50,145 nt of DNA, from IMG/VR virus record IMGVR_UViG_2579778539_000003. One strand, written 5' to 3'. The notes under the pieces were generated by a model. It searched no databases, was not told the DNA's origin, and saw nothing but the letters and a program-made list of their open reading frames with translations. Origin of the DNA: a virus (Duplodnaviria; Heunggongvirae; Uroviricota; Caudoviricetes). The first letter of the stretch is position 1, and every line of letters begins with the position of its first letter. Position numbers and translations under genes: made by a program. Positions 1,285-45,396 of the stretch are shown one piece after another.

Positions 1285-1391
1285 AATTCACAGGTGTTTT
1301 TTCCCATCCTGTGGTTTCCTTGGCGTTTTCTAGGTTTTTTCAGATAGTTGCATTTTTTAAAAAGCATCCTAAGTTCGATCTCAGTGTCTAT

Positions 1392-1400
1392 CTGGGGCCT
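1392..1400. repeat. IS1 target-site duplication, left copy (CTGGGGCCT)
   Basis: Identical 9-mer directly flanks both IS1 ends. Confidence 0.85.
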
Positions 1401-1455
1401 GGTGATGCTGCCAACTTACTGATTTAGTGTATGATGGTGTTTTTGAGGTGCTCCA

Positions 1456-1731
1456 GTGGCTTCTGTTTCTATCAGCTGTCCCTCCTGTTCAGCTACTGAC
1501 GGGGTGGTGCGTAACGGCAAAAGCACCGCCGGACATCAGCGCTATCTCTGCTCTCACTGCCGTAAAACATGGCAACTGCAGTTCACTTACACCGCTTCTC
1601 AACCCGGTACGCACCAGAAAATCATTGATATGGCCATGAATGGCGTTGGATGCCGGGCAACTGCCCGCATTATGGGCGTTGGCCTCAACACGATTTTACG
1701 TCACTTAAAAAACTCAGGCCGCAGTCGGTAA
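1456..1731 (+). CDS. insA: IS1 InsA
   Basis: 91-aa [27 protein letters not shown]..., recognisable IS1 InsA. Confidence 0.9.
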
Positions 1732-2153
1732 CCTCGCGCATACAGCCGGGCAGTGACGTCATCGTCTGCGCGGAAATGGACGAACAGTGGGGCTATGTCG
1801 GGGCTAAATCGCGCCAGCGCTGGCTGTTTTACGCGTATGACAGTCTCCGGAAGACGGTTGTTGCGCACGTATTCGGTGAACGCACTATGGCGACGCTGGG
1901 GCGTCTTATGAGCCTGCTGTCACCCTTTGACGTGGTGATATGGATGACGGATGGCTGGCCGCTGTATGAATCCCGCCTGAAGGGAAAGCTGCACGTAATC
2001 AGCAAGCGATATACGCAGCGAATTGAGCGGCATAACCTGAATCTGAGGCAGCACCTGGCACGGCTGGGACGGAAGTCGCTGTCGTTCTCAAAATCGGTGG
2101 AGCTGCATGACAAAGTCATCGGGCATTATCTGAACATAAAACACTATCAATAA
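1650..2153 (+). CDS. insB: IS1 InsB frame (expressed as InsAB' transposase by -1 frameshift in the A-run near 1706-1716)
   Basis: 167-aa ORF overlapping insA 3' end in -1 frame; TTAAAAAACTC slippery region. Confidence 0.85.
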
Positions 2154-2168
2154 GTTGGAGTCATTACC

Positions 2169-2177
2169 CTGGGGCCT
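2169..2177. repeat. IS1 target-site duplication, right copy (CTGGGGCCT)
   Basis: Identical 9-mer to 1392-1400. Confidence 0.85.
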
Positions 2178-2663
2178 ATTTCTGTCCCATATATGCCCCA
2201 AAAAAACTCCCCAACAGATAAGTAGTTTTTTCATGGATTTATGCGTAAAATCAAGAACGGCTGGAAATCATTCAATACTCACACTATCGAAAAATTTACC
2301 AGCCAACCGCAGCACGTTCTTGCATAAGGCGTGTCTGCGGTTTTTCAACTATTCAGATACATCACTCCCATCACATTCATTCCTCCGCATCAAAGGCATA
2401 TAGGCTATATCACCTTGATATTTTTCTTTTTCAGATAAAAACTGTTATCTATGTATACTTTTAAACCCAATCCGTGTAGAGTCTCTGCATAAGATAGTTT
2501 GCAGTTGCCGCTTCAGCTTGCGCCATAACCGCCTGATTTTTGCTGCCACCTGTTAGCATTCCTGTATACCTGAAACGACAATGTTTATCTACGAACTTTA
2601 AGAACACCCAAGATAAAAATTGTCAACTATATCATATATAACACATTACTAATTCGAGGCTAT

Positions 2664-2777
2664 ATGAACAGCATACTGATAATCACTTCTCTCCTTATCA
2701 TATTCAGCATTTTTAGTCATGCCCTAATAAAATTAGGGATTGGCATATCCAATAACCCAGACAAAACCGATGTATAA
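2664..2777 (+). CDS. Candidate 37-aa hydrophobic small protein ([37 protein letters not shown])
   Basis: ATG preceded by GAGG 5 nt upstream; single predicted TM helix; below the ORF-track size cutoff. Confidence 0.3.
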
Positions 2778-2845
2778 GTCAACATATCCTGAATCAGACA
2801 TACAATATCGCAATGAAAATCAATAATATTTTAAGGAATATCTTC

Positions 2846-3079
2846 ATGAAATCAAAAGACACCCTAAAGTGGTTCCCTGCGCAGCTTCCTGAAGTAAGAA
2901 TTATCCTAGGGGATGCTGTAGTGGAAGTAGCAAAACAGGGAAGACCTATCAATACCAGAACATTGCTTGATTACATTGAAGGAAACATAAAGAAAAAATC
3001 ATGGCTGGATAACAAAGAATTATTACAAACAGCGATATCAGTTCTTAAAGACAACCAAAATTTAAATGGTAAAATGTAA
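2846..3079 (+). CDS. ydfK: YdfK-like small protein (Qin prophage, cold-shock associated)
   Basis: 77-aa product from MKSKDTLKWFPAQL...; AAGGA RBS upstream of ATG at 2846; synteny with pin. Confidence 0.7.
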   Translation: MKSKDTLKWFPAQLPEVRIILGDAVVEVAKQGRPINTRTLLDYIEGNIKKKSWLDNKELLQTAISVLKDNQNLNGKM

Positions 3080-3395
3080 TATAATAAACTTACTTTTTTA
3101 TCATTTTTCCACTTTAACAACATTTTGCTCCACTTTTCCACGACCAAACAACTTAAAATCTGGTTAAAATAACACGAAACACTATTCTTCTTCCTTGAGT
3201 CCGCCCGGAACTCGAAAAACAAACCGAGTTAAAGCCATTTTTCACAAAATCGATTTTGGGTCTCACCAAAATTACGGGGTTGCATACGCATTCGTTTATT
3301 TTCGAACGTGTACATACAAATGTGCACAAAAATAATCAAAATTATTTTCTGCGATGCATTATGATATGAACACCAATTTCGTATAGAGTCTCACT

Positions 3396-3986
3396 ATGTC
3401 TCGAATTTTTGCTTACTGTCGGATATCAACGCTGGATCAGACCACCGAAAATCAACGCCGGGAAATCGAAAGTGCAGGTTTTAAAATCAAACCTCAGCAA
3501 ATAATCGAAGAACACATTAGCGGCTCAGCAGCAACCAGTGAGCGTCCTAGTTTTAACCGGTTGCTTGCTCGCCTGAAATGTGGTGATCAATTGATTGTGA
3601 CAAAACTGGATCGCCTTGGTTGTAATGCAATGGATATCAGGAAAACAGTGGAACAACTGACCGAAACAGGTATCAGAGTGCATTGCTTAGCATTGGGGGG
3701 CATTGACTTGACCAGTCCAACAGGAAAAATGATGATGCAAGTAATTTCAGCAGTTGCTGAATTTGAACGAGACCTTTTACTTGAACGCACTCATTCCGGG
3801 ATAGTAAGAGCCCGCGGCGCAGGGAAACGTTTTGGTCGACCACCTGTGTTAAATGAAGAACAGAAACAGGTGGTATTCGAACGAATTAAGTCAGGTGTAA
3901 GTATAAGTGCCATTGCCCGGGAATTCAAAACCTCGCGGCAAACCATTTTAAGAGCCAAAGCAAAACTTCAGACACCTGACATATAA
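3396..3986 (+). CDS. pinQ: Serine DNA invertase (Pin/Gin/Hin/Cin family)
   Basis: 196-aa [23 protein letters not shown]... with catalytic-Ser N-terminal resolvase domain and C-terminal HTH. Confidence 0.9.
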
Positions 3987-4083
3987 AAAATAATCTCGGT
4001 GTGAGATGCTTTACGTCTTCCAAGCCCCCTTCCTTGCCGTAAATGGAAAGATACATCTAATTAAAGAATTTATATGTTTTACC

Positions 4084-4659
4084 CTACGGCAGTGCTGGCC
4101 ATTCAATATCCTGTGCAGTTGACGTATCAACACGGTTCAGCAATACCCGATACTTTTTCCATGCTTCCAGCAACGAGATTTCTTCCTCCGTTGCAATTTC
4201 CAGATCTGCAGCATCCTGAAGCGGCGCAATATGCTCACTGGCTACCTGCATCAGGTTGTTTTTTGTTTCTTCCGCCTCCCGGATCCGGAACAGTTTTTCT
4301 GCTTCCGTATCCTTCACCCAGGCTGTGCCGTTCCACTTCTGAAACTCCCCTTCCGGCGATAACCAGGTAACATTTTTCGGTAACGGACCGAGTTCAGAAA
4401 TAAATAACGCGTCGCCGGAAGCCACGTCATAAACCGTTTTACCCCGATGATCTTCAACGAGATGCCACGATGACTCATCACTGTTGAAAACAGCCACGAA
4501 GCCAGCCGGAATATCTGGCGGTGCAATATCGGTACTGTTTGCTGGCAGACCTGTATGAGGCGGAATATATGCATCACCTTCACCAATAAATTCATTAGTT
4601 CCGGCCAGCAGATTATAAATTGTTATGGTCCGTGGTTGTTCACTCATTCTGAATGCCAT
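4084..4659 (-). CDS. tfaQ: Tail fibre assembly chaperone Tfa
   Basis: 191-aa [23 protein letters not shown]...; start ATG overlaps stf true-frame stop (TAATG). Confidence 0.9.
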
Positions 4660-7600
4660 TATGCAAGCCTCACAATATAGTTAAATGCGATGTTTTTGAC
4701 GGTGTTTTCCGCGTTACCAGCAGCGTTAACGGTGATGGTGTGTCCATGTGAGCCAATCGCAACGGAGTGCGTATGAGCACCAATACCGACAGTATGTGCG
4801 TGTGCACCTGCGCTTGCAGAGTACCCGATACAGAGTGCGTATGAGCGCCTGCAGAAGAAGTGTTAACACTGTATTTAGAATAATCAGGTGATCCACTTCC
4901 CGGAGCACCACTGGAACCACCTGAAACAAATGTCATCGAATGGGTATGTGCACCGGCTGAAGCAGCCGTACCGCTAACACTATGGGTATGTGCACCAGTG
5001 TTATTCGTGGATTTAGTGCCGTAATCAAACGATGATGTGGTTTTCGTCCCCAAATCCGTACTGGATGCGCTGGCGCTGTGGGTGTGCGATTTAATGCCGT
5101 CCTGTTCCTGAGACAATACGGCACGACCACTGGCGGGCTTGCCCTTAATCGTCCAGCCACGCATATCAGGAATAACGCCTGACGGATAAGCCACTGCAAG
5201 TTTCGGGTATGCAGATTTGTCAAAAGTCTGCCCCTGCATCAGGGCATAGCCAGACGGAACGGTATCTGATGGCCACGGGATTGGTGCGCCGACTGGGTAG
5301 CTTTCTGGTGGAAGATTTTTCGAGGTATAAACTTCTGCCCAGTCATCCTCAAAACCATAACCGTCTCTTGAAGAACGGTAGAACAGACCACCATTTCTGT
5401 AATGCGCCTTCATCTGCAGGGTCCGGCAACTTCCGACTCCGGTATAGAAGTTAACCAGAATATAGCTGTCGCCAGAGCGAGTGACATTGTAAGCGCCTGA
5501 TTCGGCATTCCATGGAACGCCACCATCCGCATCGGCATATGTATCCGTTGCCCTTCTGGCAAAAGCAGCCACATGCGCGGCGGTTAAAGTAATATCTTTG
5601 GAACCATCAAACTCAACACCAGAAACCCGTCTTGGCGTTTGCAGCTTTGTTGCTGTTAATGCATTACCGTTCAGACTTGCGGACAGTTTGGTTCCAATAA
5701 CCAGTTCGCCGGTTGCGTTATCAATAGCAAACGGTCTTAATGTATTCCAGCCACCATAAACATCACCTTGATTGGTAAGCAGCAGGTAAGTTTTAGCGCC
5801 ATCATTACGCCATAATGCACCATACTCTCCACCTATCATTCGAATCTGATTACCACCACGCGCTACAATTTCGTCTGTGGCAAAAAGTTTTTTGCACGAC
5901 AAGTTATCGTTAACGATTAACGAATGAGACTCATAAAAACCACGCCCACTCTTAAAATCAAGGATAACGTCCGCCGCGATACATTCAGTCGCTGGATTTG
6001 TTGCCCCAAACTTATAGGTCGTATCATTAACAACGAGATCAGCACCAGGTGCGGATATTGACAGGCCATCTTCGATAAACGCAAAAACAGGGAAAGCAGC
6101 GCCATCAACATAGAACACAGAGCGCAAATCATCGCCCTTATTACTCATCATTATTGAGTGGATGGCTCGTTCATTGTTTTGATATTGCCAGAACATTCCA
6201 TAAGCATAACGCCCCCTGTCAGTCCAGCCACCAGGCATAACAAATCCGTTAAACTCGCAGTTATTCATCGGATCGCCTGCGGTTCGCGTTGCCGTGGTGA
6301 TAATGACCCTTGATGCCAGTTCGCTTACTGAGCCAGCAGAACGCATAACAACAACAGGGTAATATTTTCCAGATGTTGCACCTGCAGGAGCGTTAACCCG
6401 CACATAACGCATACCACGCTTATCAGCAAAGTCTGTTTTACTGACCGCGTTAATGTTGTTCAGGAAGCGTCCCTTATCGGGTATATCAGTGCCGTTCTGG
6501 TCTTTCTGCAGACGTTTCTCTGCATTGTCATAGGCTGATTTTACTGCCTTTGGCGTTGCCGCCAGCGTTTCAGACGTACTGTTGGTCGCACTGCTGAGCT
6601 GTACTATCCCCTTTTTCGTCGTGCTCGCATCCTCAAGCGCCACGGCGGATGCAATATCCTCTGCCCGTTTTGCTGCTGTCTCGGCGCGCGTTGCCGCGGA
6701 TTCCGCCGTACTTTTGCTCTGAGCTGCCGCCGTCGCACTGCCAGCTGCCTATGTCGCCTTCGTGGATGCCGTCGTGGCGCTGCCCTTCGCTGCTGACGCC
6801 TGTCTGGTCGCCTCATCTTTTGAAGCAGACGCCGATGATGCCGATGACGCCGCCGAACTGGCGGACGATGCGGCAGCCGTTTTTGAGGATTCTGCGCTGG
6901 TTTCCGACGCTTTCGCGTTCGTTTCGGATGTCTTCGCTGCGGAAGCAGACCTCGCTGCTGCGCTGGCCTGTTCAGTGGCTTCGCCAGCCTTCGTTGTGGC
7001 TGTTGAAGCAGACGATGCGGCGCTTTCTGCCGATTTTCCGGCGGCGGTGGCACTGGCTGAGGCCTGCCCGGCACTTGTTGACGCTGCACTGGCAGACGAC
7101 GCAGCCGCTGTTTTTGAGCCTGCCGCAGCCGAGGCGCTCTGTCCCGCTGCCGTTTCAGAAGACCTGGCGTTCGTCTCGGACGTTTTTGCCGCCTTCGCGG
7201 AAGTTCCTGCCGCTGTTGCCGAGGAGGCTGCACGACTGGCGCTCGAGGCTGCGCTCGTTTCTGATGATTTTGCCGCCTCTTTTGAAGCCGACGCATCCCT
7301 GGCTGAGGTGGCAGCTTCTGACGCTTTCGTGGTCGCGGTGGATGCAGAAGTGGCGGCTGATTGTTCTGACGCTGCCGCATTCGTTTCTGACGTTTTCGCC
7401 GCACCGGCACTGGTAGCCGCCGCGCTTTTTGAGGACTCTGCAGCGGCAGCACTTTTTGAGGCTTCAGTGGCCTTTGTTGATGCCGTTCCTGCGCTGGAAG
7501 ACGCTGACTGAGCCGACGACGCGGCCTGTCCGGCTGACGTGCTGGCTGCACGTGCTGAATCTGCAGCATCAGTCGCACGGGTTGCCGCCTCACTGGCAGA

Positions 7601-8008
7601 TGTGCTGGCATCACTGGCTGACTTCTTTGCGGCTGCCGTGTTCTGTGCCACCACGGACGCGTTACGCGCCACCTCTTCCACCATCAGTTCAAAACGACGC
7701 AGTGCCTCCGGACGGGCATCATCCTCCGTCATGGCACCGAGAAAATCATTCAGCGTACCGGGTTGAGAATCTTCATACACGGTGATGGTCCCGGCATGTG
7801 ACGGCGGGAATCCCTCCACCAACAGAATAACGCTGTACTGACCGTACTCAACGTCCATGCTGTAACGCCCGGCTTCATCCGGATTTTCTGAGGCCAGCGT
7901 GTTCACCACCACAGTGGTACTGTTACGTTTTGCTTTCAGCTGGATTGTGCAGTTCTGTACCGGTTTTCCTGTGCCGTCTTTCAGTACACCTGAAATCTTT
8001 ACTGCCAT
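4659..8008 (-). pseudogene. stf: Side tail fibre Stf (StfR-like, about 1116 codons) disrupted by an in-frame amber (6749-6751) and a 1-nt deletion near 4819-4821
   Basis: ORFs 6749-8014 and 4670-6643 are in the same frame, separated only by TAG; C-terminal 50 codons read out of frame, the other frame gives ...[15 protein letters not shown]...[11 protein letters not shown] ending at TAA 4659-4661. Confidence 0.8.
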
Positions 8009-8018
8009 ATTCACCCCA

Positions 8019-8046
8019 CAAAAAAGCCCGCCTGAACCGGCGGGCT
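8019..8046 (-). terminator. Rho-independent terminator downstream of lom
   Basis: AGCCCGCC-TGAACC-GGCGGGCT hairpin followed by U-run on the minus strand, immediately before the stf start. Confidence 0.5.
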
Positions 8047-8072
8047 GTCATAACACTGTGTTACCTGGCTAA

Positions 8073-8672
8073 TCAGAATTTATAACCGACACCCACGATG
8101 AAACCGTCAGTGCGCCAGTCGCCACTGCCGGAGCCTTCATAAGCAATATCAATGGCCACGGATTCGGTCGGGTTAAACTGCACGCCAGCTCCCCACGCCA
8201 GAGACGTGTTGCTGTGGCGACCGTCATCACTTCCTGTCAGCACATCGTGCGTTTTCCCCGTATTGTCGGTCACCTGCAGATAATCCCCGGAGAAAGTCGA
8301 CACACGGCTGTAAGCCACACCCGCCATCGCATACGCGCTGAACCATTCATTCACGCGCACAGACGGCCCCGCCATCACGCTGAACCAGCGGTTACGCACG
8401 GAATCTTCATGCCAGCGGGTATCGCTGTAATGCGTTTTTTGCTCATCTTCAGCGTTGGCATAACTGAATGACGTAATCAGCCCCAGCGTGTCCGTAAACT
8501 CATAACGGTATTTCACGTTAATCCCGTTCAGATTATCGCTGCCGGGAGCGTTCGTACGGGCATGAAGATACCCTGCGCTCAGTGTGGCCTGCTGCTCAGA
8601 CGCCCATGCAGGCGCACCGGATACGGCCAGACAGATGGCTGTGGACAAAATGGCTGCACAAACTTTACGCAT
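8073..8672 (-). CDS. lom: Lom outer-membrane protein (Ail/Lom family beta-barrel)
   Basis: 199-aa ORF with signal peptide and C-terminal ...GVGYKF; lambda position between J and stf. Confidence 0.9.
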
Positions 8673-8694
8673 AATTACCTCTCGCTTTTCTGCA

Positions 8695-8720
8695 ATAAAA
8701 AAGGCGCCATTTCTGGCGCC
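8695..8720 (-). terminator. Rho-independent terminator between J and lom
   Basis: GGCGCC-ATTTCT-GGCGCC hairpin followed by U-run on the minus strand. Confidence 0.5.
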
Positions 8721-8739
8721 CGTAAATGGGTTATAAAAT

Positions 8740-11700
8740 TCAGCTGATACTGATGCCTGCGGTGGCTTTCTTCATCACCACAACCAGCAAATCGCTGATA
8801 CTTGCTGTGGGATACCAGTCATTTACCAGCCATGCTGACACCGAAAACTCCAGCGTCATGTGGCCGTGACCAGCTGGCATATCAATAACACCACTGTAAA
8901 TCAGCGTATTATCCAGCGCGGTACGGTTATAAATTTCAGCACCATTTTTCTTCACTATCAGGCGGCATGAGGAGTAAATATCAGTATGCTCTCTCTCATG
9001 TTTAGCACCGCTGAATGCCACCGCCGGAATAACAATCTGCCGGTCAAACGGCTGATCGTCATAAATCCTGACGGTAATGGTCCCTGATGGCCACCGCTCC
9101 GGTGCCCGGGAGTCCCGCGGGAAAGCCTTACCCACTGTTTTGACAATATCGCCTTCAATCTGGTTGGCTGACAGTTTCCCTTTAATCTGACAGTTTTCAT
9201 TTATCGTAACGTTGTTGAGCGTCCCGGCGTTCGCATTCACACTGCCACTGATAACTGCATTTTTAGCGGTCAGCTTTCCGTCCGGTGTCAGGGAAAATGC
9301 AGGAGGATTACCGCCGCTGGTAATGGTGGGAGCCGTCAGATATTTCAGGAACACTTCATTCATGAATATCTGATCACCCTGACCAACAAACATCGGTTTT
9401 GTGTTGCCATTTGCAGGATTAATCATCGCAATCCTGTCTGCCGCCAGCAGCACCTGACTCTGCATGCCGTCGGGGGTGTTCTCAATACCGGCACCGATAC
9501 CCGCAATATAAAGGCGTCCGTCCTGCATCTGCTGCAGCTTCACAGCCCACATGCTGTTCAGATTATTATTTGTATCAACCTGAACCTTCTGTATCTGCTG
9601 GATCGCTGCACTCTGGTCTTCCAGTTTCTTATTGACGGTCTGTGTGATTTCATTGCTGACATCCGTAATGGATGTCCTGATTTCAGCCAGGTCAGGCGCA
9701 AGCTGACCGTTATCAATCTGCGTCCACAGCTCCTGAGCCAGATGGGTTTTCCCTATCTCGCCTTTGAAAAAATCCAGATAGCCGGATGCGTCATCACTCG
9801 GCTGACCAACAGCCTCCACGAATGCCGATTTGCCAACGGTGTTCACACTGCGAACGTAAAAATAATAATTATGGCCCGGCCTGATATTGATACTGGCGGC
9901 TATCCAGTACAGCGCCGTGCCAAGATAGCGTGCTGTGGTTTCAACCTGCCTGATATCCGCAATCCGCTTTTCCGAGAACCAGAACTCAAACTGTACCGTC
10001 GGATCATAAACCGCAAGATGCGGCGTGGCGGTTATCTGAAAATAGCCCGGCGTCAGCTCAATCCGCGACGGCGCTGCCGGTGCGGCAATCCGGAACGATA
10101 CCGACGCCGGATCGCCCTGCTGCCCCCACGCATTTACTGCCCGGACTGTCAGCCTGTAGTTCCCCAGAGCCAGTTGTGTGAAGCGGTAAGTGGTTTCCGT
10201 CGTCCGGGCCGTGCTGACCAGCCGCTCACTGCCGTCATCCGCTGCCACGGTCAGGCGAAGCAGGAAGCTCACGCCCTTCACCACCTTCGGCGTGTCCCAG
10301 CGGGCCAGCACCTGGTATTCCCCGCTGTCTGCAGTGACTTCTGCGGTCAGGTGCTGCACCGCTGGCGGCGTGACACCGTTCACCGTGCCACTCTGTTCGC
10401 CGTCAAAGTGCGCCCCGTTATCCACGATGACCTCTTTTTCCGGCACATGCTGCACGGCGGTGATGGCATACGTGCCGTCGTCGTTCTCACGGATACTCAC
10501 GCAGCGGAACAGTCGCTGGCGCAGCCTCGGCAGCTTCAGCCCCCATACGCTGTATTCAGCAACACCGTCAGGAACACGGCTCACTTTCACCTTCACGCCG
10601 TCGGTGACGGACTGAACCTCCACGCTGACCGGATTGCCACTTCCGTCAACCAGGCTTATCAGCGTGGTACCGGAGGATGGCAGCGTGATTTCACGGTCAA
10701 GCGTCAGCGTCCGGGTCAGGCTGTTCACCGCCAGCACACGACCACCGGTGCTGATACCGGCATAGTCATCATCACAGATTTCAATAACATCGCCCGGTAC
10801 ATGGCGAAGCCCTTCCGCACCCACGCTGAAATCCACGGTCTGCGTTTCCAGCAGCTCCGTTTTAATCAGCCACAGCCCGGCTCGGTGTGCCTGCCCCCGG
10901 CTGGTACAGCCAAAGGCATCCATCTTCGTGACATTACGACCGTAACGGGCAATGGCCTGCGTGTCCTCCACAAGCTCTGTCGCCGTCTCCCAGCCGTTAT
11001 CCGGGTCAATCCAGTTCACCTCAACGGCATTATGGCGGTCCTTCAGGGCGCTGAAGCTGTAGCGGAACGGCGCGCCATCATCCGGCATCACCACATTACT
11101 GCGGTTATAGGTCCACACCTTATCCGACGGTCGGTCCTGCACGAACGTCAGCGTCTGCCCGTTCCATACCGGCATACAGCGCATCGCCGAGCAGAAATCA
11201 CTGAGCACATCCCACGCCTTGCGCTGTGTGGTCAGCCAGGCATTACAGGTGATGCGCGGCTCCGTGCTGCCAAAGCCGTCCGGCACCGACTGGTCGCAGT
11301 ACTGGCCGATGACATACAGCGCCCATTTATCCACATCCGCTGCACCAAGACGTTTCCCCATGCCGTAGCGCGGATGGGGCAGCATATCCCACAGACACCA
11401 GGCCATGTTGTTGCTGTATGCCGGTTTAAACGTTCCGTCCCAGATACCGCTGTATTGCCGCGTCTGCGGGTTATAATTCGACGGCACCTGCAGAATACGC
11501 CCGCGCAGATGATAATTACGGCTCACCTGCTGGCTGCCGAACTGCTCCGAGTCCACCTGCACGCCGAACAGTGCCGTGTTCGGGTAGCACTGTTTCACAT
11601 CGATAATTTCGGTGTATGACGACCAGAGCGTTTTGTTCTGCAGCTGGTCTGTGGTGCTGTCCGGCGTCATCCTGCGCATCCGGATACTGAACGGGCGCGG

Positions 11701-12219
11701 CGGCAGGTTATCCACCACCACCGAGGCCAGATACTGTGAAGTGGTTTTACCCTTAATGGTGATGTCTTTTTCCGTCACCCAGCCACCGTTACGTTGTATC
11801 TGAACCAGCAGGTGGACTTCCGATGGATTCCTGTCCCCCTTTGAGGTGGTTTCCACCAGTGCCTGCACGCCGAAAGTAAAACGCAGACGGTCAATGTTTG
11901 CCGACGTGATGGTCCGGGTGATCGGCGTGTCATATTTCACTTCTGTACCGAGCACCGTCTCGGAGCCGGAGGATTCAAATCCCTCCGGCGGTGTCTGCTC
12001 CTGCTCACCGGCCCGGAACACCACCGTGACGCCGGATATATTGGTATTCCCCTCACTGTCCAGCACCGGCGTACTGTTCAGCAGCACGCTTTTTAATCCA
12101 TCCACCGGACCTTCAACCGGCCCTTCGCTGATGGCATCAATCACACTCAGCAGCTGCGTGGACTTCAGGTTGTCCTTCGCTTCGCGCGGGGTATGCCCCT
12201 TACTGCTGCCTTTACCCAT
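8740..12219 (-). CDS. J: Tail tip / host specificity protein J
   Basis: 1159-aa [24 protein letters not shown]...; recognisable lambda gpJ; synteny. Confidence 0.95.
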
Positions 12220-12279
12220 TCGTCACGCTCCATAAACGACAAAACCGCCCGCAGGCGGTTTCACATAAAATGTTTTGCA

Positions 12280-12921
12280 TCAGCGACCAATCACCACAAC
12301 CTGACCACCATCCCCTTCGTCTGCCGTGCTGATCTCCTGAGAAACCACCCGTGACCCCACGCGCATTTCACCGTACAGAACAGGCAGAACATTGCCCTGG
12401 GCAACCATGTTATCCAGTGAGGAGAAATAGGTGTTCTGCTTACCGTTATCCGTTGTCTGTGTACGGGGAGTTCTGGCTTTCGGTGCCAGCATCTGCGCCA
12501 CACCACCGAGCACCATACTGGCACCGAGAGAAAACAGCAGATTACTCGCCATAATTCCTACCCCCGGCATCCATATAGCAACCGCCATAACAGCCGCCCC
12601 CAGCACAGCCTGAAACACACCGCCACTTTTGGCTCCTGCCAGACGCGGCACGATATGGATCACAGCACCATTTGCCAGCGGTTCATTAAGACGGGCTGAT
12701 AATTCATTTTCGCCTGCATCACGCCCGGCAATGCGCACCTGATACCAGCCCTCATTCAGTTTCTGGCGAAACGACGGAAGCTGCGTGGCCAGCGCCCGGA
12801 TGGCTTCGGCCCCCGTTTTCACACGAAGGTCGATGCGGCGGCCAAATCGTTGTAAATCCCCGTAAAGGCAGATGCGTGCCATGCCCGGTGACGCCAGAGG
12901 GAGTGTGTGCGTCGCTGCCAT
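12280..12921 (-). CDS. I: Tail assembly protein I (start uncertain; internal Met at 12882 possible)
   Basis: Lambda gpI-like sequence; overlaps 3' end of K. Confidence 0.8.
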   Translation of the reverse strand: MAATHTLPLASPGMARICLYGDLQRFGRRIDLRVKTGAEAIRALATQLPSFRQKLNEGWYQVRIAGRDAGENELSARLNEPLANGAVIHIVPRLAGAKSGGVFQAVLGAAVMAVAIWMPGVGIMASNLLFSLGASMVLGGVAQMLAPKARTPRTQTTDNGKQNTYFSSLDNMVAQGNVLPVLYGEMRVGSRVVSQEISTADEGDGGQVVVIGR

Positions 12922-29403: not shown

Positions 29404-29610
29404 CTTCATTTTCACTTTTTTAAATCCAACGACAGACGGCTGGCATTTAAGTATTGTGAAATATTATCAAATGTAATCATCATTGATTTACAAAAGATAC
29501 ATTTTGCCCCGAAAGGATTCATGTCAGAAACATCAAAAGATGATGTTCTATACTGGGAACCATGACAACACGGGCATCTAAAGTGAATATGGTTTGTAAT
29601 ATTGTCTACC

Positions 29611-29823
29611 TCAAAGCGCCACTACATGAACAGCGGCAGGACCTTTAGGTCCGTTCTCAATACCAAATTCAACTTCCTGATTCTCAGTTAATGTTTTGAA
29701 ATCGTTGCTCTGAATTGCTGAGAAATGGACAAACACATCTTTGCTGCCATCTTTCGGCGTGATGAAACCAAAACCTTTTTCAGGGTTAAACCATTTCACT
29801 AAACCAGTCATTTTGTTAGACAT
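29611..29823 (-). CDS. cspI: Cold-shock protein CspI
   Basis: 70-aa CspA-family [26 protein letters not shown]... Confidence 0.9.
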
Positions 29824-30185
29824 AATTATTACCTTTTGAAGAAATTAGCCCTTGGGCAGAATGGTCCGAAAAAAAATATCAGAGAGAAAAACCAACAAGG
29901 AAATCTCAAGAGGTACAAATAATAAAATTATAACAATGACTGCTTCAGATAAATTTGTAACAAACCAGAACACCATTAACGCATGATTAACCACCCATAG
30001 CAAGGATTACTTTTGTAAAGAAAAACACAGCAATGAAAGAATAGCTTTATTTATTAATAAAACGTGTCATTCTGATTAAGACCTTTTATCTTACCCTTAA
30101 GATTTCAGGAATTTTGGCTCATGGAAGAGTCCTTTTTATTTAAATTTTACATTCCGCGATGTAAATGTTCCGATTTAATATTACC

Positions 30186-32131: not shown

Positions 32132-32494
32132 TTGATTTTATTAGTAACAAGTATTTTTTATATTTTAATAATATATTTAAAGCAGATAATAAAAAACCCG
32201 CCTGAGCGGGTTTGAGATTGTGGTGCTTTTTGTGGGAGTCATCCACTTACGCACTTTGTTTTGCCATGCCAGCAGTTAGCTTCTGCTGTAAAACTATTCA
32301 TGCAGCAAACCTGCACTTCACCACAATGGTTAGCATACTTTTCCTGATTAAGATTTTGCCAAATATGCTAGCCATTGTTTCATGTATTGGACCTCCTTAC
32401 TTTTTATTAAAGAGATCCAATATTCACTACTCTGTCCGTATCTCTACTCAGGCATCAGCCTTCTTCGTTATCGTATACAGACGAGCGATGAATT

Positions 32495-32710
32495 TTAATC
32501 AGTAATGATGACATTTGCTGCTGCAGGACCTTTAGCACCACTCTCTATAGAGAAGGTAACCTTTTGACCTTCAAATAAGGTTCGATAATTATCATTCTGA
32601 ATCGCAGAAAAATGCACAAACACATCTTTACTACCATCAACAGGAGAAATAAAGCCGAAACCTTTATCAGCGTTAAACCATTTTACTAAACCAGTCATTT
32701 TATTTGACAT
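32495..32710 (-). CDS. cspB: Cold-shock protein CspB
   Basis: 71-aa CspA-family ORF. Confidence 0.9.
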
Positions 32711-33010
32711 TCTACATTCCTTAACTTGAGCCTTTCGGCATAAATGGTTTGCATAACAGAAACGACTTCGTACTTAATTGGAGAGACTCAAAGAAGGAAT
32801 AAGTGAATAACACCTGAAATGAGAACTGCTTTAGTAAACTACTTCGTATATCGTCTGTTCTTCAAACCGACGCAATCATTAACGCATAGTTGAACATATG
32901 AAGCAATGTTTATTTTAGACATCCAGCCATCTTCAACCCCATCAAAAAACTATAGCTTTCTTCAGGAACGTGTGTATAGTGCGCCAAGTTATCAGTATTA
33001 AGGAATTTTT

Positions 33011-38149: not shown

Positions 38150-39765
38150 ACATTAGCATAGGCTATTTACCATAACGCCTCATTACGCGCACCGCCCAGA
38201 CTGACTCAGCGCGTTTCTGGCATATCCCCGGTAAAACAAGTAACAAACCACCCGAAAATGAACACCAGAAACGCGACTTAAGAATCTACCCTATGAATGG
38301 ATATGCACTCAACCGAATCGATCTTGGTTTCAATCTTTTTTATCGGGATCAGGCTTCTTTTTAGGTAACTTCGGGGGCTTAACTTGCTGATGACTTTGCG
38401 TTCGGCGCGTAAGCCAGGGATGGTCAGCTTTAGGTTTAACATAGTATTTTGAGCGTAAATCAATACGGGCATTATCCACTCGTTCATGGACACTCTTTTC
38501 ATCATCCAGTGGTATAGGCTCCGGGCCATCAACATACTTTTCCCAGCCCAGCGCTTTCCCGTCATACAGAACGTTAATTTCACCGTCAAAGTTCTCGCAT
38601 ACAGTAACAACCGAATGCCTAAGTCGATATCCCCGGCCCTCACTGCGTACCTGAAACGCACTGCTTTTGTACTGGAAAGTGAGATTTTTAGACAGAACGC
38701 GCTTCGCCTGTAGGCTGAAGATATAACCCAGTTCCTCTTCAGAATGGTGCACATCAAGATGAGCATTATCAGTAGTACGAGGCGACGTAGCGAACCGGTT
38801 GTTATAGGCTTCAATAAAGGTCGGCAACCATGCATTTGCTGTTTCAATATCACTGATATTCTGAAGCCGCATTTCTTTGACCAGCCTGTCCTGTAGTGTC
38901 TGATTGGCGCGCTCTACCCGCCCTTTTGCCTGCGGGCTGTTGGCATGGATTGGCTCGATGCCCAGTGTCTTTATCGCACGAGTGAACTGGGTCAGCTCAC
39001 CTTCCCGCTCTGGGTTATTTACCCTGAATATACTGTGTCTATCAGAGTAGAGAGCGAGCGGTACGCCATGATCATTAAGGTAACCCCGGAGGGTTTCCAT
39101 GTAAGCCCGGGTTGTTTCAGCAGGCACAAAACGCAACGCCATCAACGCACTGGTGGCATCATCAATGAAAACGATCAGTGTACATCTGGGGCCTCGATTT
39201 TCAAACCAGTCATGAGGTGAGCCATCAATCTGGATCAGTTCACCGTAAGATGGTCGTCGCATGCGGCGTTGATATATACGGGCAATTTTACGACGGCGTT
39301 CACGCCATAACCCCTCTTCTATCATCCACTTTCTGAGAGTTTCAACGGATAAAGATAAACCGTGTATCTCGCGCAATTTTTCGCACGCAAACGTAGGTCC
39401 AAAATCAGCGTAACGGCCTTTGAGGAGTGAAATTACTGTTGCTCTGAATTCAGTAGAAAAGGAATTATTAGGACGCTTTCCACGTCGGTGGGAAACCAGA
39501 CCAGAAGGCCCTTCATTTCTATACCGTTGCACCAGACGTTTAACCTGCCGAATAGAAATGCCAATGCGTGCCGCAGCTTGTTCCTGAATAATCTGAAGTC
39601 GGTGGAGTTCCTTATGACTCATCGTAACAGTCTCTTTGATCATGAAAAATCCCCCAGAGAATTGTCTGGGGACATTTTAGAATGGTTCAAAGGGGACATT
39701 ACAGCTTGGTGTTAACAATAGCCTGCTTCTCCGTGCCTTTCGGCACGTAAGAGGCTAACCTACAT
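38150..39765 (-). mobile_element. Putative single-ORF IS element (IS481-like); boundaries approximate
   Basis: Encodes a DDE/rve transposase; ends only tentatively placed from weak terminal similarity (TAGG...GCCTC.TTACG.G). Confidence 0.4.
38330..39643 (-). CDS. DDE-type (rve integrase-core) transposase with N-terminal HTH
   Basis: 437-aa ORF; HTH GISIRQVKRLVQRYRNEG; core IQIDGSPHDWF...VFIDDATS...SDRHSIF...; Lys-rich C-terminus. Confidence 0.8.
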   Translation of the reverse strand: MIKETVTMSHKELHRLQIIQEQAAARIGISIRQVKRLVQRYRNEGPSGLVSHRRGKRPNNSFSTEFRATVISLLKGRYADFGPTFACEKLREIHGLSLSVETLRKWMIEEGLWRERRRKIARIYQRRMRRPSYGELIQIDGSPHDWFENRGPRCTLIVFIDDATSALMALRFVPAETTRAYMETLRGYLNDHGVPLALYSDRHSIFRVNNPEREGELTQFTRAIKTLGIEPIHANSPQAKGRVERANQTLQDRLVKEMRLQNISDIETANAWLPTFIEAYNNRFATSPRTTDNAHLDVHHSEEELGYIFSLQAKRVLSKNLTFQYKSSAFQVRSEGRGYRLRHSVVTVCENFDGEINVLYDGKALGWEKYVDGPEPIPLDDEKSVHERVDNARIDLRSKYYVKPKADHPWLTRRTQSHQQVKPPKLPKKKPDPDKKD

Positions 39766-39977
39766 GTGTCTAGCATGAAATTGGCCTCAGATTAATGTTA
39801 AGCGTCTTGCAGGACGCGTAATGTTAACTGGGGCTTTTCTCTATCTGCCGTTGGTGTCCATGCCCGAGGCAGATAGCCTCAAGCACCCGCAGTCATTCTA
39901 CTTAACTAAGATTTCCCCGCAAACCGTTTTTGTCCAGCACAGTAAATATCCAACTAAACCAATGGAGTTCGCTGTAT

Positions 39978-40157: not shown

Positions 40158-40399
40158 TATTCCTCCTACAATCAATGTGCAATTACATTTAAACACACCT
40201 CAATTTGGCCGGACATATAAATATCTAAACCAGAAAAAATCACTTACATAGCGTTACAAACTCTTTAGTCTAAAGGTTCATCGTAAAACATTCCCCATAC
40301 TTATCAGTCCGTTCCGCGCCAGGTAGCTCATTGCCTTATCTGGCAACCTGTAATCAGGTTTCCGCTTTTTCAGTTGGCTGGTCGTTTAACCGACATAGT

Positions 40400-41220
40400 T
40401 AATCCATTAATCTAGTTGCCGGATGTTGGTGGATTTTCGCGTTTTAGTTGTTCATAAAAGTGCACAGCTTTAACCAGTTCTTCTGATGTAACTGGGACTG
40501 GTGAGGCAGTGAATAAGGCCTGAATTTGATAGTTCGGCCTGTCGTTACAATCCTCTTTTTTCGGTACATATTTCCAGTCACCAGACCACTACTTCCCCTG
40601 AAAGTCCGTAACGCCTTTTTTCACGTAGCGATATCGCCATGCCACTGGTTTTGCTTGCCCCGCCGTTTCATGCCCTTCCTGATAATTAATCTCGCTCATT
40701 CATCGCCCCACTCATCACAATATGCTTCGACCGGAGTTTTTCCCGCTTCATAGTCATCACGCTAGGATTCGACATCAGCAGCACTTCCACCGCGTAACTC
40801 ACCATAGTCCATTAATAGTTCATCCCGCTCTTCAAAACTGATGTTATATTTAGCTGAACAAAAATCAGCCACTTTGTTCTTCCTCATCGTCTTTTATTTC
40901 GTGGTATGAGTAATTGCAGTAGTTAAAGAAAATTTCTTATGCTCCGTCATGAATTTCCTCAGGTGTTGCGTCATCGTCCACTTCGAATACATCCTCAAAA
41001 TCTCCACCAGCTATTCCCGTTTCAATAATAATTTTGAACTTTCGCATTTCACTACCGCCCTTTCGGGCGGCCTCCTGATGTTCTGAGGGTGCAGAAATCC
41101 ATCCGGTTAAGGATTAAATTTTATTTACAGAACTGAATTTAATTATTCAGATATACGTATCTGTAGCCTTACGAATCTACTCACTGGATGCCTCTTTCAT
41201 AAAAATAATCCAGTGGGTTT
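40400..41220 (-). pseudogene. Decayed nin-region small ORFs (one about 96-codon frame interrupted by in-frame TAG at 40589-40591)
   Basis: Several short overlapping minus-strand ORFs with weak RBS; ...VTDFQGK*WSGDWKYVPKK... reads through an amber. Confidence 0.3.
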
Positions 41221-41309
41221 TATCGTTTTTTCCCTGTTCGTTGACAGATAACAGGTTTTCTGTCTGTCAGTGCCAGAATCTGGCTTACCGGTATTTGCGT
41301 TTCATTCCA

Positions 41310-41666
41310 TTAAAAAATCAGAACGCCGTGCGGCCTCAACACCCGAAAGGCTTCTTTAAATCTCTGTCGCGAATCATCACGCCAGGCATCTTTATTCAGC
41401 CGTCCATATTTCTTTCCCATCCAGGCGTTATCACCAACACTCTCAAGATGCGGAGGGTCTAATACAACCATCGAAAAAGATGCGTCTGCAAATGATAATG
41501 CACGAAAATCTGCGATAATGTCAGGGCTGATAATCAAGCGTCTCCCATTGCGTAATGTGTATCCTTCTTTTCTGATATCGCTGAATATCGCCCGTTCGTC
41601 AGACTTATCGAACCAGAACATGCGGCTGCCACAGCACATATCAAGAATGGTTGCCGGTGCACTCAC
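41310..41666 (-). CDS. Small DNA N6-adenine/N4-cytosine-type methyltransferase (possibly truncated)
   Basis: 118-aa ORF with SAM-binding-like ILDMCCGSR and catalytic-like VVLDPPHL; GTG start overlaps upstream stop (GTGA). Confidence 0.6.
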   Translation of the reverse strand: MSAPATILDMCCGSRMFWFDKSDERAIFSDIRKEGYTLRNGRRLIISPDIIADFRALSFADASFSMVVLDPPHLESVGDNAWMGKKYGRLNKDAWRDDSRQRFKEAFRVLRPHGVLIF

Positions 41667-42085
41667 TGCGCCACGTCCTGAAAATTACCCTGATAGAAAG
41701 CCAGTATGCGCTGCATAACTTCGCTCTTCCGGCACTCGCGACAGATTATGTTTAGGCGACTGTCGTAGCGACGTATTTCTCCGTCAGGTGATGACCAGAT
41801 AAGGTCCGGATCAACCACAGCAGGTTTCTTCACCTTTGCCCTCGAGAGTTTTTTGCGGGCGTTTTGCCAGTCCTTACGCGCCTGTTCAGAGGGGAATAAC
41901 CCGTAGCCGGAGTTGTATACATCGCCACTGGCTACCAGCTCTCTGGCAAGAACGCTCATCAGATATCTAGTCGCACCTGTTTTAGCTTCCAGTTGCCGTA
42001 ACGTCTCACGGCCGCTCTGGCGCACGAGTTCCACCACCTGCCATTTAATTTTTTCCCGCTCTTCTTGTGTAAAAACTTTTGCCAC
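41663..42085 (-). CDS. Hypothetical 140-aa protein, translationally coupled to the MTase
   Basis: ORF MAKVFTQEEREKIKWQVVELVRQSGRETLRQLEAKTGATRYL... with possible HTH; 4-nt overlap with downstream gene. Confidence 0.6.
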   Translation of the reverse strand: MAKVFTQEEREKIKWQVVELVRQSGRETLRQLEAKTGATRYLMSVLARELVASGDVYNSGYGLFPSEQARKDWQNARKKLSRAKVKKPAVVDPDLIWSSPDGEIRRYDSRLNIICRECRKSEVMQRILAFYQGNFQDVAQ

Positions 42086-42125: not shown

Positions 42126-43091
42126 TTATCCTCTGAAACCAGGCGGAATTTCTGTATCCGGTTCAGAAATATGATTAACACAACGCTGTACAGGTGAACG
42201 TCCCAGGCGGATGACCAGTTCGTCCCATTTTTCGCGGAGCTTTGACGGGCTCATGATGTTTTTTACCCAGAATGGATCTCGCTGAACCCGACCAAACATT
42301 TCGCAAATTTGTCTGTGGCTTCTGCCATCCAGCATCCGCATTGTGCGCACGTCATTGGCCCAGGCAGTCCAGTTAGGCTCTTTTGGTCGCATGATCTCGC
42401 CATCATCACTGGCTGCCTGTTCGTAGAGACCCACGATCCGCCCCCAGATCCACTGCGCACACGCCAAATCCTCCCTGCTACCCCACTGGCGTTTTTTCGC
42501 ACTAAACACAACCGCGTCGGAGTTCCGGGTTAAAAAATCCTGTTCAGTCGTCTGCGGGTCCGGTTGCGAAGCTTCCGGACGAAAAGTGTTTTTATTCTCT
42601 GTAGTAATCTCTGTTGTATTCTCTGTAAGATCATCAGGCCATTTTGACCCGATGACATTGGGTCGTTTTGAACCAATGGAGCGTTTCATTTTGACCTCTT
42701 CCATCGTGTCATTTTGACCTGATGGAGCGGCGCATTTTGAACCGATGGATTCGCTCAATTTGCCACCATCTAAAAGCTCGCTCCCATAGTTGATCGTGTA
42801 GAAATTGGTCATATCGCGCTTTGATTTATTGAGCTTTTCACAACGCAAAAGCCCCAGCGTTTTCAGACTTGCAAACGCGCGCTTTAACGTTGACTCTGAC
42901 CAGAATGGGAACTGTTCCAGCCATTGTTCCGTTGTGTTATAAATCCAGCGAACACCATCACATTCCATGCCGGAGATGGTATCTCTCAACCAGTAGTGCA
43001 GTTGTTGCAAAACAATGGCTTCGTTTAAGCCAATTTTCATTGCCAGCTGCGTGTTTATAACCAGTGGGCGTTCAGCAAAAAGAAGGCTCAT
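42126..43091 (-). CDS. Replication initiator, O-like (start taken at internal ATG; ORF track starts at TTG 43145)
   Basis: Iteron array lies in the middle of the ORF (linker SIGSK repeats); lambda-O-like organisation; C-terminal region resembles primosomal DnaT-like domain. Confidence 0.6.
   Translation of the reverse strand: MSLLFAERPLVINTQLAMKIGLNEAIVLQQLHYWLRDTISGMECDGVRWIYNTTEQWLEQFPFWSESTLKRAFASLKTLGLLRCEKLNKSKRDMTNFYTINYGSELLDGGKLSESIGSKCAAPSGQNDTMEEVKMKRSIGSKRPNVIGSKWPDDLTENTTEITTENKNTFRPEASQPDPQTTEQDFLTRNSDAVVFSAKKRQWGSREDLACAQWIWGRIVGLYEQAASDDGEIMRPKEPNWTAWANDVRTMRMLDGRSHRQICEMFGRVQRDPFWVKNIMSPSKLREKWDELVIRLGRSPVQRCVNHISEPDTEIPPGFRG
42631..42742. repeat. Origin iterons: 4-5 copies of ATTTTGA(A/C)C(C/T)GATGGAGCG at about 23-25 bp spacing, adjacent AT-rich tract at 42588-42630
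   Basis: Direct repeats at 42631, 42656, (degenerate 42678), 42701, 42724. Confidence 0.6.
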
Positions 43092-43593
43092 AATTCCATC
43101 CAGCTTTTTGTTGGTATTGCTGTCGATACGCAAGTTTGAAAGCAATTGCTTTTTCTATAAGTTCGTCAGTTTCACGATCCACTACGGCAGGATCAGCAAA
43201 AAGCAGTCCGGACTCCACCACATCGCCATATTCTTTGTTTAACCCGGCGATCATGCACGTGATGCTTTTTCCGTCAGTAATTTCACGATACAACCTGAAA
43301 TCATTAATCCGGATAGCCTCCATAATTGCAGGCACTAGCGCCGTGAACTTTTCACGCTTATCCCTGGTGTCGATAGCCTTCCAGCGTTCAAATATCTTCA
43401 CTCGATTAACGCCAAGCGCTCGCTGATCAATCGCGCCACCTTCATATGTGACACGCTGAACATCGATGTTCGGGCGCTCTTTCAAAGCCCAGAATGCTTC
43501 AGTGATTAATATCGTCGCCTGCTCCTGTGTCATTCCTGGTCGACATATCCAGGCATCCAGAGCCTCACGAGCCTGTTCAGGAGTGATTTTCAT
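43072..43593 (-). CDS. Hypothetical 173-aa protein downstream of dicC (cII-position gene)
   Basis: ORF MKITPEQAREALDAWICRPGMTQ...; overlaps dicC 3' end by 17 nt. Confidence 0.6.
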   Translation of the reverse strand: MKITPEQAREALDAWICRPGMTQEQATILITEAFWALKERPNIDVQRVTYEGGAIDQRALGVNRVKIFERWKAIDTRDKREKFTALVPAIMEAIRINDFRLYREITDGKSITCMIAGLNKEYGDVVESGLLFADPAVVDRETDELIEKAIAFKLAYRQQYQQKAGWNYEPSFC

Positions 43594-45337: not shown

Positions 45338-45396
45338 TTTTCTGGTGACGTTTGGCGGTATCAGTTTTACTCCGTGACTGCTCTGCCGCCCTTTTT
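45338..45396 (+). ncRNA. dicF: DicF sRNA (ftsZ-targeting, processed from the ydfABC-dicF-dicB transcript); ends approximate
   Basis: TTTCTGGTGACGTTTGGCGGTATCAGTTTTACTCCGTGACTGCTCTGCCGCCCTTTTT matches DicF including the terminator hairpin GGCGG...CCGCC plus T-run. Confidence 0.75.

What the first reader, a model, noticed from the sequence alone, without database searches (positions are those of the whole stretch)
41310..42085. Translationally coupled 140-aa protein and small MTase without a restriction partner
The MTase ORF (118 aa; motif I-like then DPPH motif IV-like) starts with GTG overlapping the stop of the upstream 140-aa gene and ends at TAA; a further 29-codon frame is open beyond it. 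No restriction endonuclease is nearby, so this is more likely an anti-restriction or epigenetic orphan MTase, possibly truncated.
Basis: inference. Interest (0 to 1): 0.45.

Follow-up and report, generated by a model that had tools for sequence, protein, structure and literature searches.

The report
Decayed methyltransferase pseudogene in Qin prophage
The small "methyltransferase" is the broken remnant of a common 160-residue phage gene, disabled by a stop codon and a frameshift, in the well-known Qin prophage of E. coli; it is an ordinary, already annotated feature.

Summary
On the minus strand a 140-aa ORF (41663-42085) and a 118-aa ORF (41310-41666) overlap by GTGA. The second ends at TAA, and 29 more codons stay open in frame.

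The 140-aa protein is a DUF977/"LygF" protein. The 118-aa ORF is the 5' part of a pseudogene spanning 41177-41666. Intact relatives are 156-162 aa. The window copy carries two lesions:
- AAA>TAA at codon 119, a Lys invariant in 84 homologues.
- A one-base insertion in a G run (41232-41234).

Reverting both restores a 162-aa ORF. The copy also has substitutions at three other almost invariant positions. NCBI's PGAP pipeline flags a 98.8%-identical allele as "frameshifted; internal stop".

A confident model of an intact relative shows that the truncation removes the end of strand 5 and all of strands 6 and 7 of the methyltransferase fold. Activity is therefore very unlikely.

The window is a full-length Qin prophage, and this segment is 100% identical in many complete E. 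coli genomes. No restriction enzyme is annotated in the prophage, so the ancestral gene was an orphan.

A working anti-restriction or epigenetic enzyme is not supported. The substrate of the intact family could not be determined here.

The parts
41663..42085 (-). Intact 140-aa gene for a DUF977 family protein, also annotated 'LygF' and PHROG 142 'Ren-like exclusion protein'. It lies directly downstream of the O-like replication gene.
   Evidence: ORF. Pfam PF06163 at E=5.1e-29, covering profile positions 1-134 of 134. PHROG 142 at E=1.6e-47. RefSeq protein WP_001151262.1. Found in 24 Escherichia/Shigella phage records.
41177..41666 (-). Whole methyltransferase pseudogene: the ancestral 162-codon reading frame from the GTG start to the ancestral TAG stop.
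   Evidence: DNA alignments with intact genes (A1, A5). The in-silico repair restores 162 aa and ends at TAG 41177-41179. tblastn shows that the read-through part aligns in 244 phage records.
41310..41666 (-). The remaining 118-codon ORF, i.e. the N-terminal 73% of the enzyme. It carries motif I (ILDMCCGS) and motif IV (DPPH).
   Evidence: PHROG 954 profile positions 52-165 of 229. RefSeq WP_001310834.1 'class I SAM-dependent methyltransferase'.
41310..41312 (-). Lesion 1: nonsense codon TAA in place of AAA (Lys119). The changed base is 41312.
   Evidence: Window ...ATT TTT TAA TGG... against ...ATT TTT AAA TGG... in intact genes. K119 is invariant in 84 homologues.
41232..41234 (-). Lesion 2: a one-base insertion in a G run (GGG where intact genes have GG). 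It shifts the frame near codon 145.
   Evidence: Gap column in the intact sequences of alignments A1 and A5. Deleting one G restores ...GKNDKTHWIIFMKEASSE.
41220..41222 (-).
41663..41666 (-). GTGA overlap: the GTG start of the methyltransferase frame and the TGA stop of the DUF977 gene.
   Evidence: The same 4-nt overlap is present in the intact DUF977-methyltransferase pair of E. coli 95NR1.
41676..41679 (-). AGGA, a Shine-Dalgarno-like sequence 9 nt upstream of the GTG start and inside the DUF977 coding region.
   Evidence: Read directly from the sequence. Its function is inferred.

Best explanation
The locus is the early-gene region of a full-length Qin (lambdoid) prophage of E. coli.

The 140-aa gene is an intact DUF977/LygF gene of unknown function. 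It follows the O-like replication gene.

The ORF after it is the decayed remnant of a widespread accessory gene of temperate phages. That gene encodes a roughly 160-aa, single-domain, class I SAM-dependent methyltransferase with a DPPH motif IV. It sits beside replication genes and never has a partner endonuclease. In intact phages it is presumably made early, together with the replication proteins. It is annotated as, and by its motifs resembles, a nucleic-acid amino-methyltransferase.

In this prophage the gene is dead. A single-base change turned the invariant Lys119 codon into TAA. A one-base insertion shifts the frame near codon 145. Three further almost invariant residues have been replaced.

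If a 118-aa product is made at all, via the GTGA overlap, it lacks the end of strand 5 and strands 6-7 of the seven-stranded fold. It should therefore neither fold stably nor methylate anything.

What is shown: the lesions, their homology-based interpretation, the fold mapping and the prophage identity. What is inferred: loss of activity, translational coupling, and a nucleic-acid substrate for the ancestral enzyme.
For: Family and length:
- PHROG 954 at E=6.7e-58, but only profile positions 52-165 of 229 are covered.
- Intact relatives are 156-162 aa: phage genes of 160, 158 and 156 aa, E. coli proteins P0001, P0002 and P0004 of 161-162 aa, and a 157-aa gene in E. coli 95NR1.
- The 29 codons after the TAA still align with homologues in 244 phage records.

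Lesions:
- The DNA alignments show the single-base AAA>TAA change and the extra G.
- Repairing both restores 162 aa.
- K119 is invariant in 84 sequences, and 9 of the 51 columns conserved at 90% or more lie beyond residue 118.
- The window allele also deviates at P58, F69 and G102. Thirty intact members checked deviate at 0-3 such columns, against 4 for the window.
- A 98.8%-identical allele shares both lesions and is flagged 'frameshifted; internal stop' by PGAP.

Structure:
- The AlphaFold model of intact P0001 has pLDDT 86 and pTM 0.84. Strand 5 spans residues 110-121, strand 6 spans 138-141 and strand 7 spans 150-156.

Context:
- Neighbouring genes downstream are also pseudogenes: DUF7167 with an internal stop, a hypothetical gene with a frameshift, and a partial ISNCY transposase.
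- The isolated phage HannyBb keeps only a roughly 50-residue N-terminal remnant of the gene, so it appears dispensable in that phage.
- The gene names in the E. coli W annotation identify the prophage as Qin.
Against: - PGAP annotates the 118-aa ORF as an ordinary CDS (WP_001310834.1) in most genomes.
- The allele is 100% identical in many complete genomes listed. That could be read as conservation, but clonal inheritance of a chromosomal prophage explains it equally well.
- Motifs I-IV and a start with a Shine-Dalgarno-like sequence are retained, so a truncated polypeptide may still be produced.
- No expression or methylome data were available.
Confidence: 0.9

Rival explanations
1. The 118-aa product is a functional truncated protein: either a minimal methyltransferase or a SAM-binding or regulatory fragment that is kept by selection.
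For: The ORF keeps its start, a Shine-Dalgarno-like AGGA, motif I and DPPH. It is annotated as a normal CDS in most genomes and is identical in many of them.
Against: - It lacks strands 6-7 and 9 of the 51 most conserved family positions, including the invariant K119-W120, P138, W152 and F155.
- It has non-conservative changes at conserved P58, F69 and G102.
- After the two Qin alleles split, the window allele gained two more amino-acid changes, R76S and L99S, in the remaining ORF, alongside two synonymous differences between the alleles there. With so few changes this is compatible with relaxed constraint but does not demonstrate it.
- The identity across genomes is expected from vertical inheritance of a chromosomal prophage.
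Confidence: 0.05
2. The full-length enzyme is still made by recoding: read-through of the TAA plus a ribosomal frameshift at the G/A run.
For: The insertion lies in a homopolymer-rich stretch, GGGAAAAAAC. Everything after the two lesions still encodes the conserved family sequence.
Against: - Two independent recoding events would be needed in one short gene.
- TAA is an efficient stop codon in E. coli (established knowledge).
- In the reading frame that follows the TAA, the G/A stretch does not form a canonical X XXY YYZ slippery heptamer, and a +1 shift would be required (read directly from the sequence).
- Intact relatives have neither feature, so these are mutations and not a conserved signal.
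Confidence: 0.01
3. The stop codon and frameshift are sequencing or assembly errors in an otherwise intact gene.
For: Homopolymer indels are a common error type. One ENA-derived variant (P0006) reads GAA rather than TAA at codon 119.
Against: The same sequence occurs at 100% identity in many independently sequenced complete genomes, including E. coli W, ATCC 8739, IAI39, 042 and CE10. Both lesions are also present in a diverged 98.8% allele. P0006 still carries the frameshift and ends ...TGKKR.
Confidence: 0.01

Closest known systems
Phage/prophage ~160-aa 'class I SAM-dependent methyltransferase' family (PHROG 954). Examples: E. coli P0001 (162 aa), Klebsiella phage ST846-OXA48phi9.2 QBP07693.1, Pectobacterium phage ZF40 gp20, Streptococcus phage T12 gp28, Listeria phage A006 gp44.
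   Same: 77-88% amino-acid identity to enterobacterial members and 45-64% to members from phages of other phyla. The motif order and start position are the same, as is the location downstream of replication genes. No partner endonuclease is present.
   Different: The window copy is interrupted by TAA at the invariant Lys119 and by a one-base insertion. It also carries substitutions at conserved P58, F69 and G102. It is a pseudogene of the family, not a working member.
Intact DUF977-methyltransferase gene pair in the lambdoid prophage of E. coli 95NR1 (WP_001151127.1 + WP_000004203.1)
   Same: The same two genes in the same order, with the same 4-nt start/stop overlap, followed by a DUF7167 gene.
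   Different: In 95NR1 the methyltransferase is a complete 157-aa gene and the downstream DUF7167 and ead/Ea22-like genes are intact. In the window all of these are degraded.
Nucleic-acid amino-methyltransferases with a (D/N/S)PP(Y/F/W) motif IV, such as the DNA N6-adenine enzyme M.TaqI, tRNA m2G Trm11/TrmN and rRNA m2G RsmC
   Same: Class I Rossmann-like fold with motif I followed by a DPP-aromatic-like motif on strand 4. These proteins appear among the structural neighbours of the intact homologue.
Non-specific phage m6A methyltransferases (PhiARM81ld_p56 / PhiOS31_p25 group; PMC7556043)
   Same: Small orphan phage methyltransferases without a restriction partner. A homologue is present in Morganella phage IME1369_02, which also carries a member of the present family.
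   Different: A different gene and family. The homologue cited in the paper is ARM67989.1, whereas the member of the present family in that phage is ARM68010.1. Their demonstrated activity therefore cannot be transferred.
Qin cryptic prophage of E. coli K-12
   Same: The same prophage by gene content: dicA, dicC, dicB, DicF, ydfA-D, relBE, hokD, flxA, ydfU/T, cspB/F/I, essD, rrrQ, nohA, tfaQ and pinQ, inserted next to a truncated ydfJ.
   Different: The window version is near full length, at roughly 46 kb with a complete head and tail module. It retains the ydaT-like, O-like, DUF977 and methyltransferase-remnant genes. From my own knowledge, the K-12 version has lost most of these.

Membership tests
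Phage ~160-aa class I SAM-dependent methyltransferase family (PHROG 954) | Significant sequence homology to the family profile | tested here: met
   PHROG 954 at E=6.7e-58. 88% identity to the intact E. coli P0001. 254 phage records found by tblastn.
Phage ~160-aa class I SAM-dependent methyltransferase family (PHROG 954) | N-terminal SAM-binding motif I (ILDxCCGS) and motif IV (DPPH) | tested here: met
   Residues 7-14 and 70-73 are present and match invariant family columns.
Phage ~160-aa class I SAM-dependent methyltransferase family (PHROG 954) | Uninterrupted 156-162-aa reading frame that includes the conserved C-terminal K119-W120, P138, T-H-W150-152, F155 and K157 | tested here: not met
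   TAA at codon 119 and a one-base insertion near codon 145. The locus is therefore a pseudogene derived from the family.
DNA amino-methyltransferase (N6-adenine / N4-cytosine) | Catalytic (D/N/S)PP(Y/F/W) motif on strand 4 | tested here: inconclusive
   DPPH is present at the end of strand 4 (residues 64-70) in the model of the intact homologue. His replaces the canonical aromatic residue.
DNA amino-methyltransferase (N6-adenine / N4-cytosine) | Match to a curated DNA methyltransferase family, or a target-recognition domain | tested here: not met
   Only weak Methyltransf_11/25 matches in Pfam, and nothing above cut-off in NCBIfam. No PDB relative by sequence. The single-domain 160-aa model has no extra domain.
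DNA amino-methyltransferase (N6-adenine / N4-cytosine) | Demonstrated methylation of DNA | not testable with these tools
   No experimental characterisation of this family was found in the paper library.
Restriction-modification system | A cognate restriction endonuclease gene next to the methyltransferase | tested here: not met
   No endonuclease is annotated in the whole prophage, nor next to family members in five unrelated phages. The ancestral gene is therefore an orphan.
DUF977 (Pfam PF06163) for the 140-aa protein | Full-length match above Pfam's gathering score | tested here: met
   101.5 bits against a cut-off of 22.1, covering profile positions 1-134 of 134.
Translationally coupled gene pair | Start codon overlapping the upstream stop codon, with a ribosome-binding site inside the upstream gene | tested here: met
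   GTGA at 41663-41666 and AGGA 9 nt upstream. The same overlap is present in an intact relative. Actual coupling of translation was not measured.

The most novel reading that the evidence does not exclude
The truncated 118-aa N-terminal fragment (SAM-binding half plus DPPH) might be retained in Qin-bearing E. coli because it has acquired a non-catalytic role, for example SAM binding or interference with incoming phages that carry the intact enzyme. The data do not exclude this, but nothing positively supports it.
Probability: 0.04. Interest if true: 0.4.

Novelty: already known. Interest (0 to 1): 0.08.

Why it matters
It matters little beyond annotation hygiene. RefSeq protein WP_001310834.1 is named as an ordinary "class I SAM-dependent methyltransferase" in the genomes examined, yet it is the 5' fragment of a pseudogene. 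It should not be counted as an active orphan methyltransferase in E. coli methylome or anti-restriction surveys.

The one point of wider interest is indirect. The intact parent family is a roughly 160-aa enzyme without a recognition domain, conserved at 45-65% identity in temperate phages of several bacterial phyla, and always beside replication genes. I found no experimentally known substrate for it.

Tried and rejected
1. A first AlphaFold run of the intact homologue used 39 close enterobacterial sequences and gave an unusable model (pLDDT 61.5). A profile-based protein search returned the same close relatives again. Adding Firmicutes homologues found with the phage T12 protein raised the model to pLDDT 86.

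4. Lead: the experimentally non-specific m6A methyltransferase PhiOS31_p25 has a homologue in Morganella phage IME1369_02, which is also a hit for this family. It was rejected because the paper's homologue is ARM67989.1, whereas the family member is ARM68010.1.

5. Literature searches turned up no functional study of the methyltransferase family or of DUF977. The terms tried were DUF977, LygF, DPPH with motif IV, Qin prophage with methyltransferase, ZF40 with methylase, and PhiR42_1. The group A Streptococcus methylome paper discusses other (m5C) prophage methyltransferases.

6. Recoding by read-through plus frameshift, and sequencing error, were both considered and rejected. See the rival explanations.

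7. The PDB sequence search for the DUF977 protein gave nothing significant.

Full report
**Observation.** One is a 140-aa ORF at 41663-42085 and the other a 118-aa ORF at 41310-41666; both start with GTG. They overlap by four bases, GTGA at 41663-41666, and an AGGA lies 9 nt upstream of the second start. The 118-aa frame ends at TAA (41310-41312). It is followed in the same frame by exactly 29 sense codons, up to a TAA at 41220-41222. The protein carries ILDMCCGS (motif I-like) and VVLDPPH (motif IV-like). Neither ORF is a chance ORF: the 118-aa ORF matches PHROG 954 "DNA methyltransferase" at E=6.7e-58, and the 140-aa ORF matches Pfam DUF977 at E=5.1e-29 over the whole profile.

**Where this is.** The 1.2-kb segment around the finding is 100% identical in many complete E. 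coli genomes, including W, ATCC 8739, IAI39, 042 and CE10. It is 99.9% identical in the deposited phage record PhiR42_1 from ECOR13. The RefSeq annotation of E. coli W has feature coordinates that coincide with the window's ORFs from about 17 kb onward. It shows that the window is a near full-length Qin prophage:
- a truncated ydfJ at the insertion site;
- pinQ, tfaQ and a complete tail, head and terminase module;
- the lysis genes essD, rrrQ and rzpQ;
- cspB, cspF and cspI; ydfT and ydfU; rem, hokD, relBE and flxA;
- a partial ISNCY transposase, followed by two pseudogenes;
- the methyltransferase ORF, DUF977, an O-like replication gene, a YdaT-like gene, dicC and dicA;
- ydfA-D, dicB, an exonuclease, an excisionase and an integrase.

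Rfam finds DicF at 45340-45391. No restriction endonuclease is annotated anywhere in the element.

**The methyltransferase ORF is the 5' part of a pseudogene.**
- The PHROG match covers only profile positions 52-165 of 229.
- Translated searches show that the 29 codons beyond the TAA still align with homologues: 244 of 254 phage records cover at least 80% of a 148-residue read-through query.
- Intact relatives are 156-162 aa. Examples are Klebsiella phage phi9.2 (160 aa), Pectobacterium phage ZF40 gp20 (158 aa), Erwinia phage 49 (156 aa), E. coli proteins P0001, P0002 and P0004 (161-162 aa) and a 157-aa gene in E. coli 95NR1.
- DNA alignments with three intact genes show two lesions. The first is ATT TTT TAA TGG in place of ATT TTT AAA TGG, a single base change at 41312. 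The second is an extra G in the run at 41232-41234.
- Changing the T back to A and deleting one G restores a 162-codon frame. It ends ...GKNDKTHWIIFMKEASSE with TAG at 41177-41179, the same length as P0001.

**Conservation shows that the missing part matters.** I aligned 84 homologues from Enterobacteria and Firmicutes. Lys119 is invariant, and 9 of the 51 columns conserved at 90% or more lie after residue 118: K119, W120, Q124, P138, T150, H151, W152, F155 and K157. The same residues are invariant in a nine-sequence alignment spanning phages of Streptococcus, Gordonia, Listeria, Vibrio and Porphyromonas. Inside the remaining ORF the window allele also departs from three columns that are 99-100% conserved: P58S, F69L and G102R. 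Thirty intact members that I checked depart at 0-3 such columns, against 4 for the window.

A second Qin allele, 98.8% identical, from strain 13E0767, shares both lesions. PGAP marks it "frameshifted; internal stop". Since the two alleles diverged, the window allele has gained two more amino-acid changes, R76S and L99S. Two synonymous differences between the alleles also lie in the remaining ORF. These counts are too small to prove relaxed constraint but are compatible with it. One ENA variant (P0006) has GAA at codon 119 but retains the frameshift.

**Structure.** An AlphaFold model of the intact P0001, built on the 84-sequence alignment, is confident (pLDDT 86.2, pTM 0.84). It shows a single-domain class I methyltransferase fold:
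- strand 1 at residues 7-11;
- strand 4 at residues 64-70, leading into DPPH;
- a long helix at residues 95-109;
- strand 5 at 110-121, strand 6 at 138-141 and strand 7 at 150-156.

Truncation at residue 118 therefore removes the end of strand 5 and all of strands 6 and 7. From this I infer that the fragment cannot form the seven-stranded sheet and is catalytically dead.

**What the intact family is.** It is very widespread: 6694 and 5012 clusters at E<=1e-5 in two searches. It occurs in temperate phages of at least five phyla at 45-64% identity. In every case examined it lies just downstream of replication genes, namely a DnaD-like loader, an O-like initiator, a primase or a helicase. None has a partner endonuclease.

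One promising lead came from experimentally non-specific m6A methyltransferases described in PMC7556043. It proved to concern a different gene in the same Morganella phage: ARM67989.1, not ARM68010.1.

**The 140-aa partner and the coupling.** DUF977/"LygF"/PHROG 142 proteins occur in 24 Escherichia and Shigella lambdoid phage records, in the position that follows the replication gene. I found no function for them in the library and no solved relative. The same DUF977-methyltransferase pair, with the same 4-nt overlap, exists intact in a prophage of E. coli 95NR1. Family members in other phages also overlap whatever gene precedes them by RTGA. The overlap is therefore ordinary phage gene packing and not a specific two-protein system.

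The methyltransferase appears dispensable in at least one viable phage. The isolated phage HannyBb keeps DUF977 followed by only a roughly 50-residue N-terminal remnant that lacks DPPH.

**Verdict.** A functioning anti-restriction or epigenetic enzyme at this locus is not supported. The feature is an already sequenced and annotated pseudogene in a well-known prophage. Its only practical consequence is that WP_001310834.1 should not be counted as an active methyltransferase.

Noticed in passing
window 40278-41047 (- strand): Immediately downstream of the methyltransferase remnant, two more early-region genes are degraded. One is a DUF7167 gene with an internal stop (40865-41047). The other is a hypothetical gene with a frameshift and an internal stop (40278-40699), according to RefSeq annotation of identical sequence in E. 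coli W. Their counterparts are intact in the 95NR1 prophage.
   Followed up: partly
window 38330-39643 (- strand) and 39717-39888 (- strand): A 437-aa ORF corresponds to what PGAP calls a partial ISNCY-family transposase plus ydfW; I believe this is the intQ/ydfW region of K-12. Directly beside it, Rfam finds a sok antitoxin RNA (104 bits) with no obvious intact hok ORF. This suggests a hok/sok locus disrupted by the insertion.
   Followed up: no
window 45340-45391 (+ strand): The DicF small RNA (Rfam RF00039, 76.7 bits) lies between ydfC and dicB, as expected for Qin.
   Followed up: no
window 1-12300 against E. coli W (L017): ORF coordinates match the E. coli W annotation exactly from about 17 kb onward. 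They differ in the tail-fibre and tail-tip region: the window has ORFs at 4670-6643, 6749-8014 and 8740-12219, whereas W has 4985-8059 and 8794-12207. The source strain therefore carries a different tail-fibre allele from W.
   Followed up: no
window 42126-43145 (- strand): The replication gene combines an O-like or replisome-organiser N-terminus with C-terminal matches to DnaD-like helicase-loader families. The window has no separate P/DnaC-like gene between it and DUF977, whereas 95NR1 has an ATP-binding protein there.
   Followed up: no
related loci L005-L007, L011-L015 (intact family members): The intact ~160-aa methyltransferase family has no recognition domain. It is 45-64% identical across phages of Proteobacteria, Firmicutes, Actinobacteria, Bacteroidetes and Verrucomicrobia, and it always sits beside replication genes. 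Some enterobacterial members are 248-251 aa, with an added C-terminal extension. I found no experimental substrate for the family.
   Followed up: partly
window 29584-29969 and 32479-32871 (- strand); 4118-4316 (- strand): Two cspA-type thermoregulator leaders lie upstream of the prophage cold-shock genes cspI and cspB. An IS009 RNA lies near pinQ/tfaQ.
   Followed up: no
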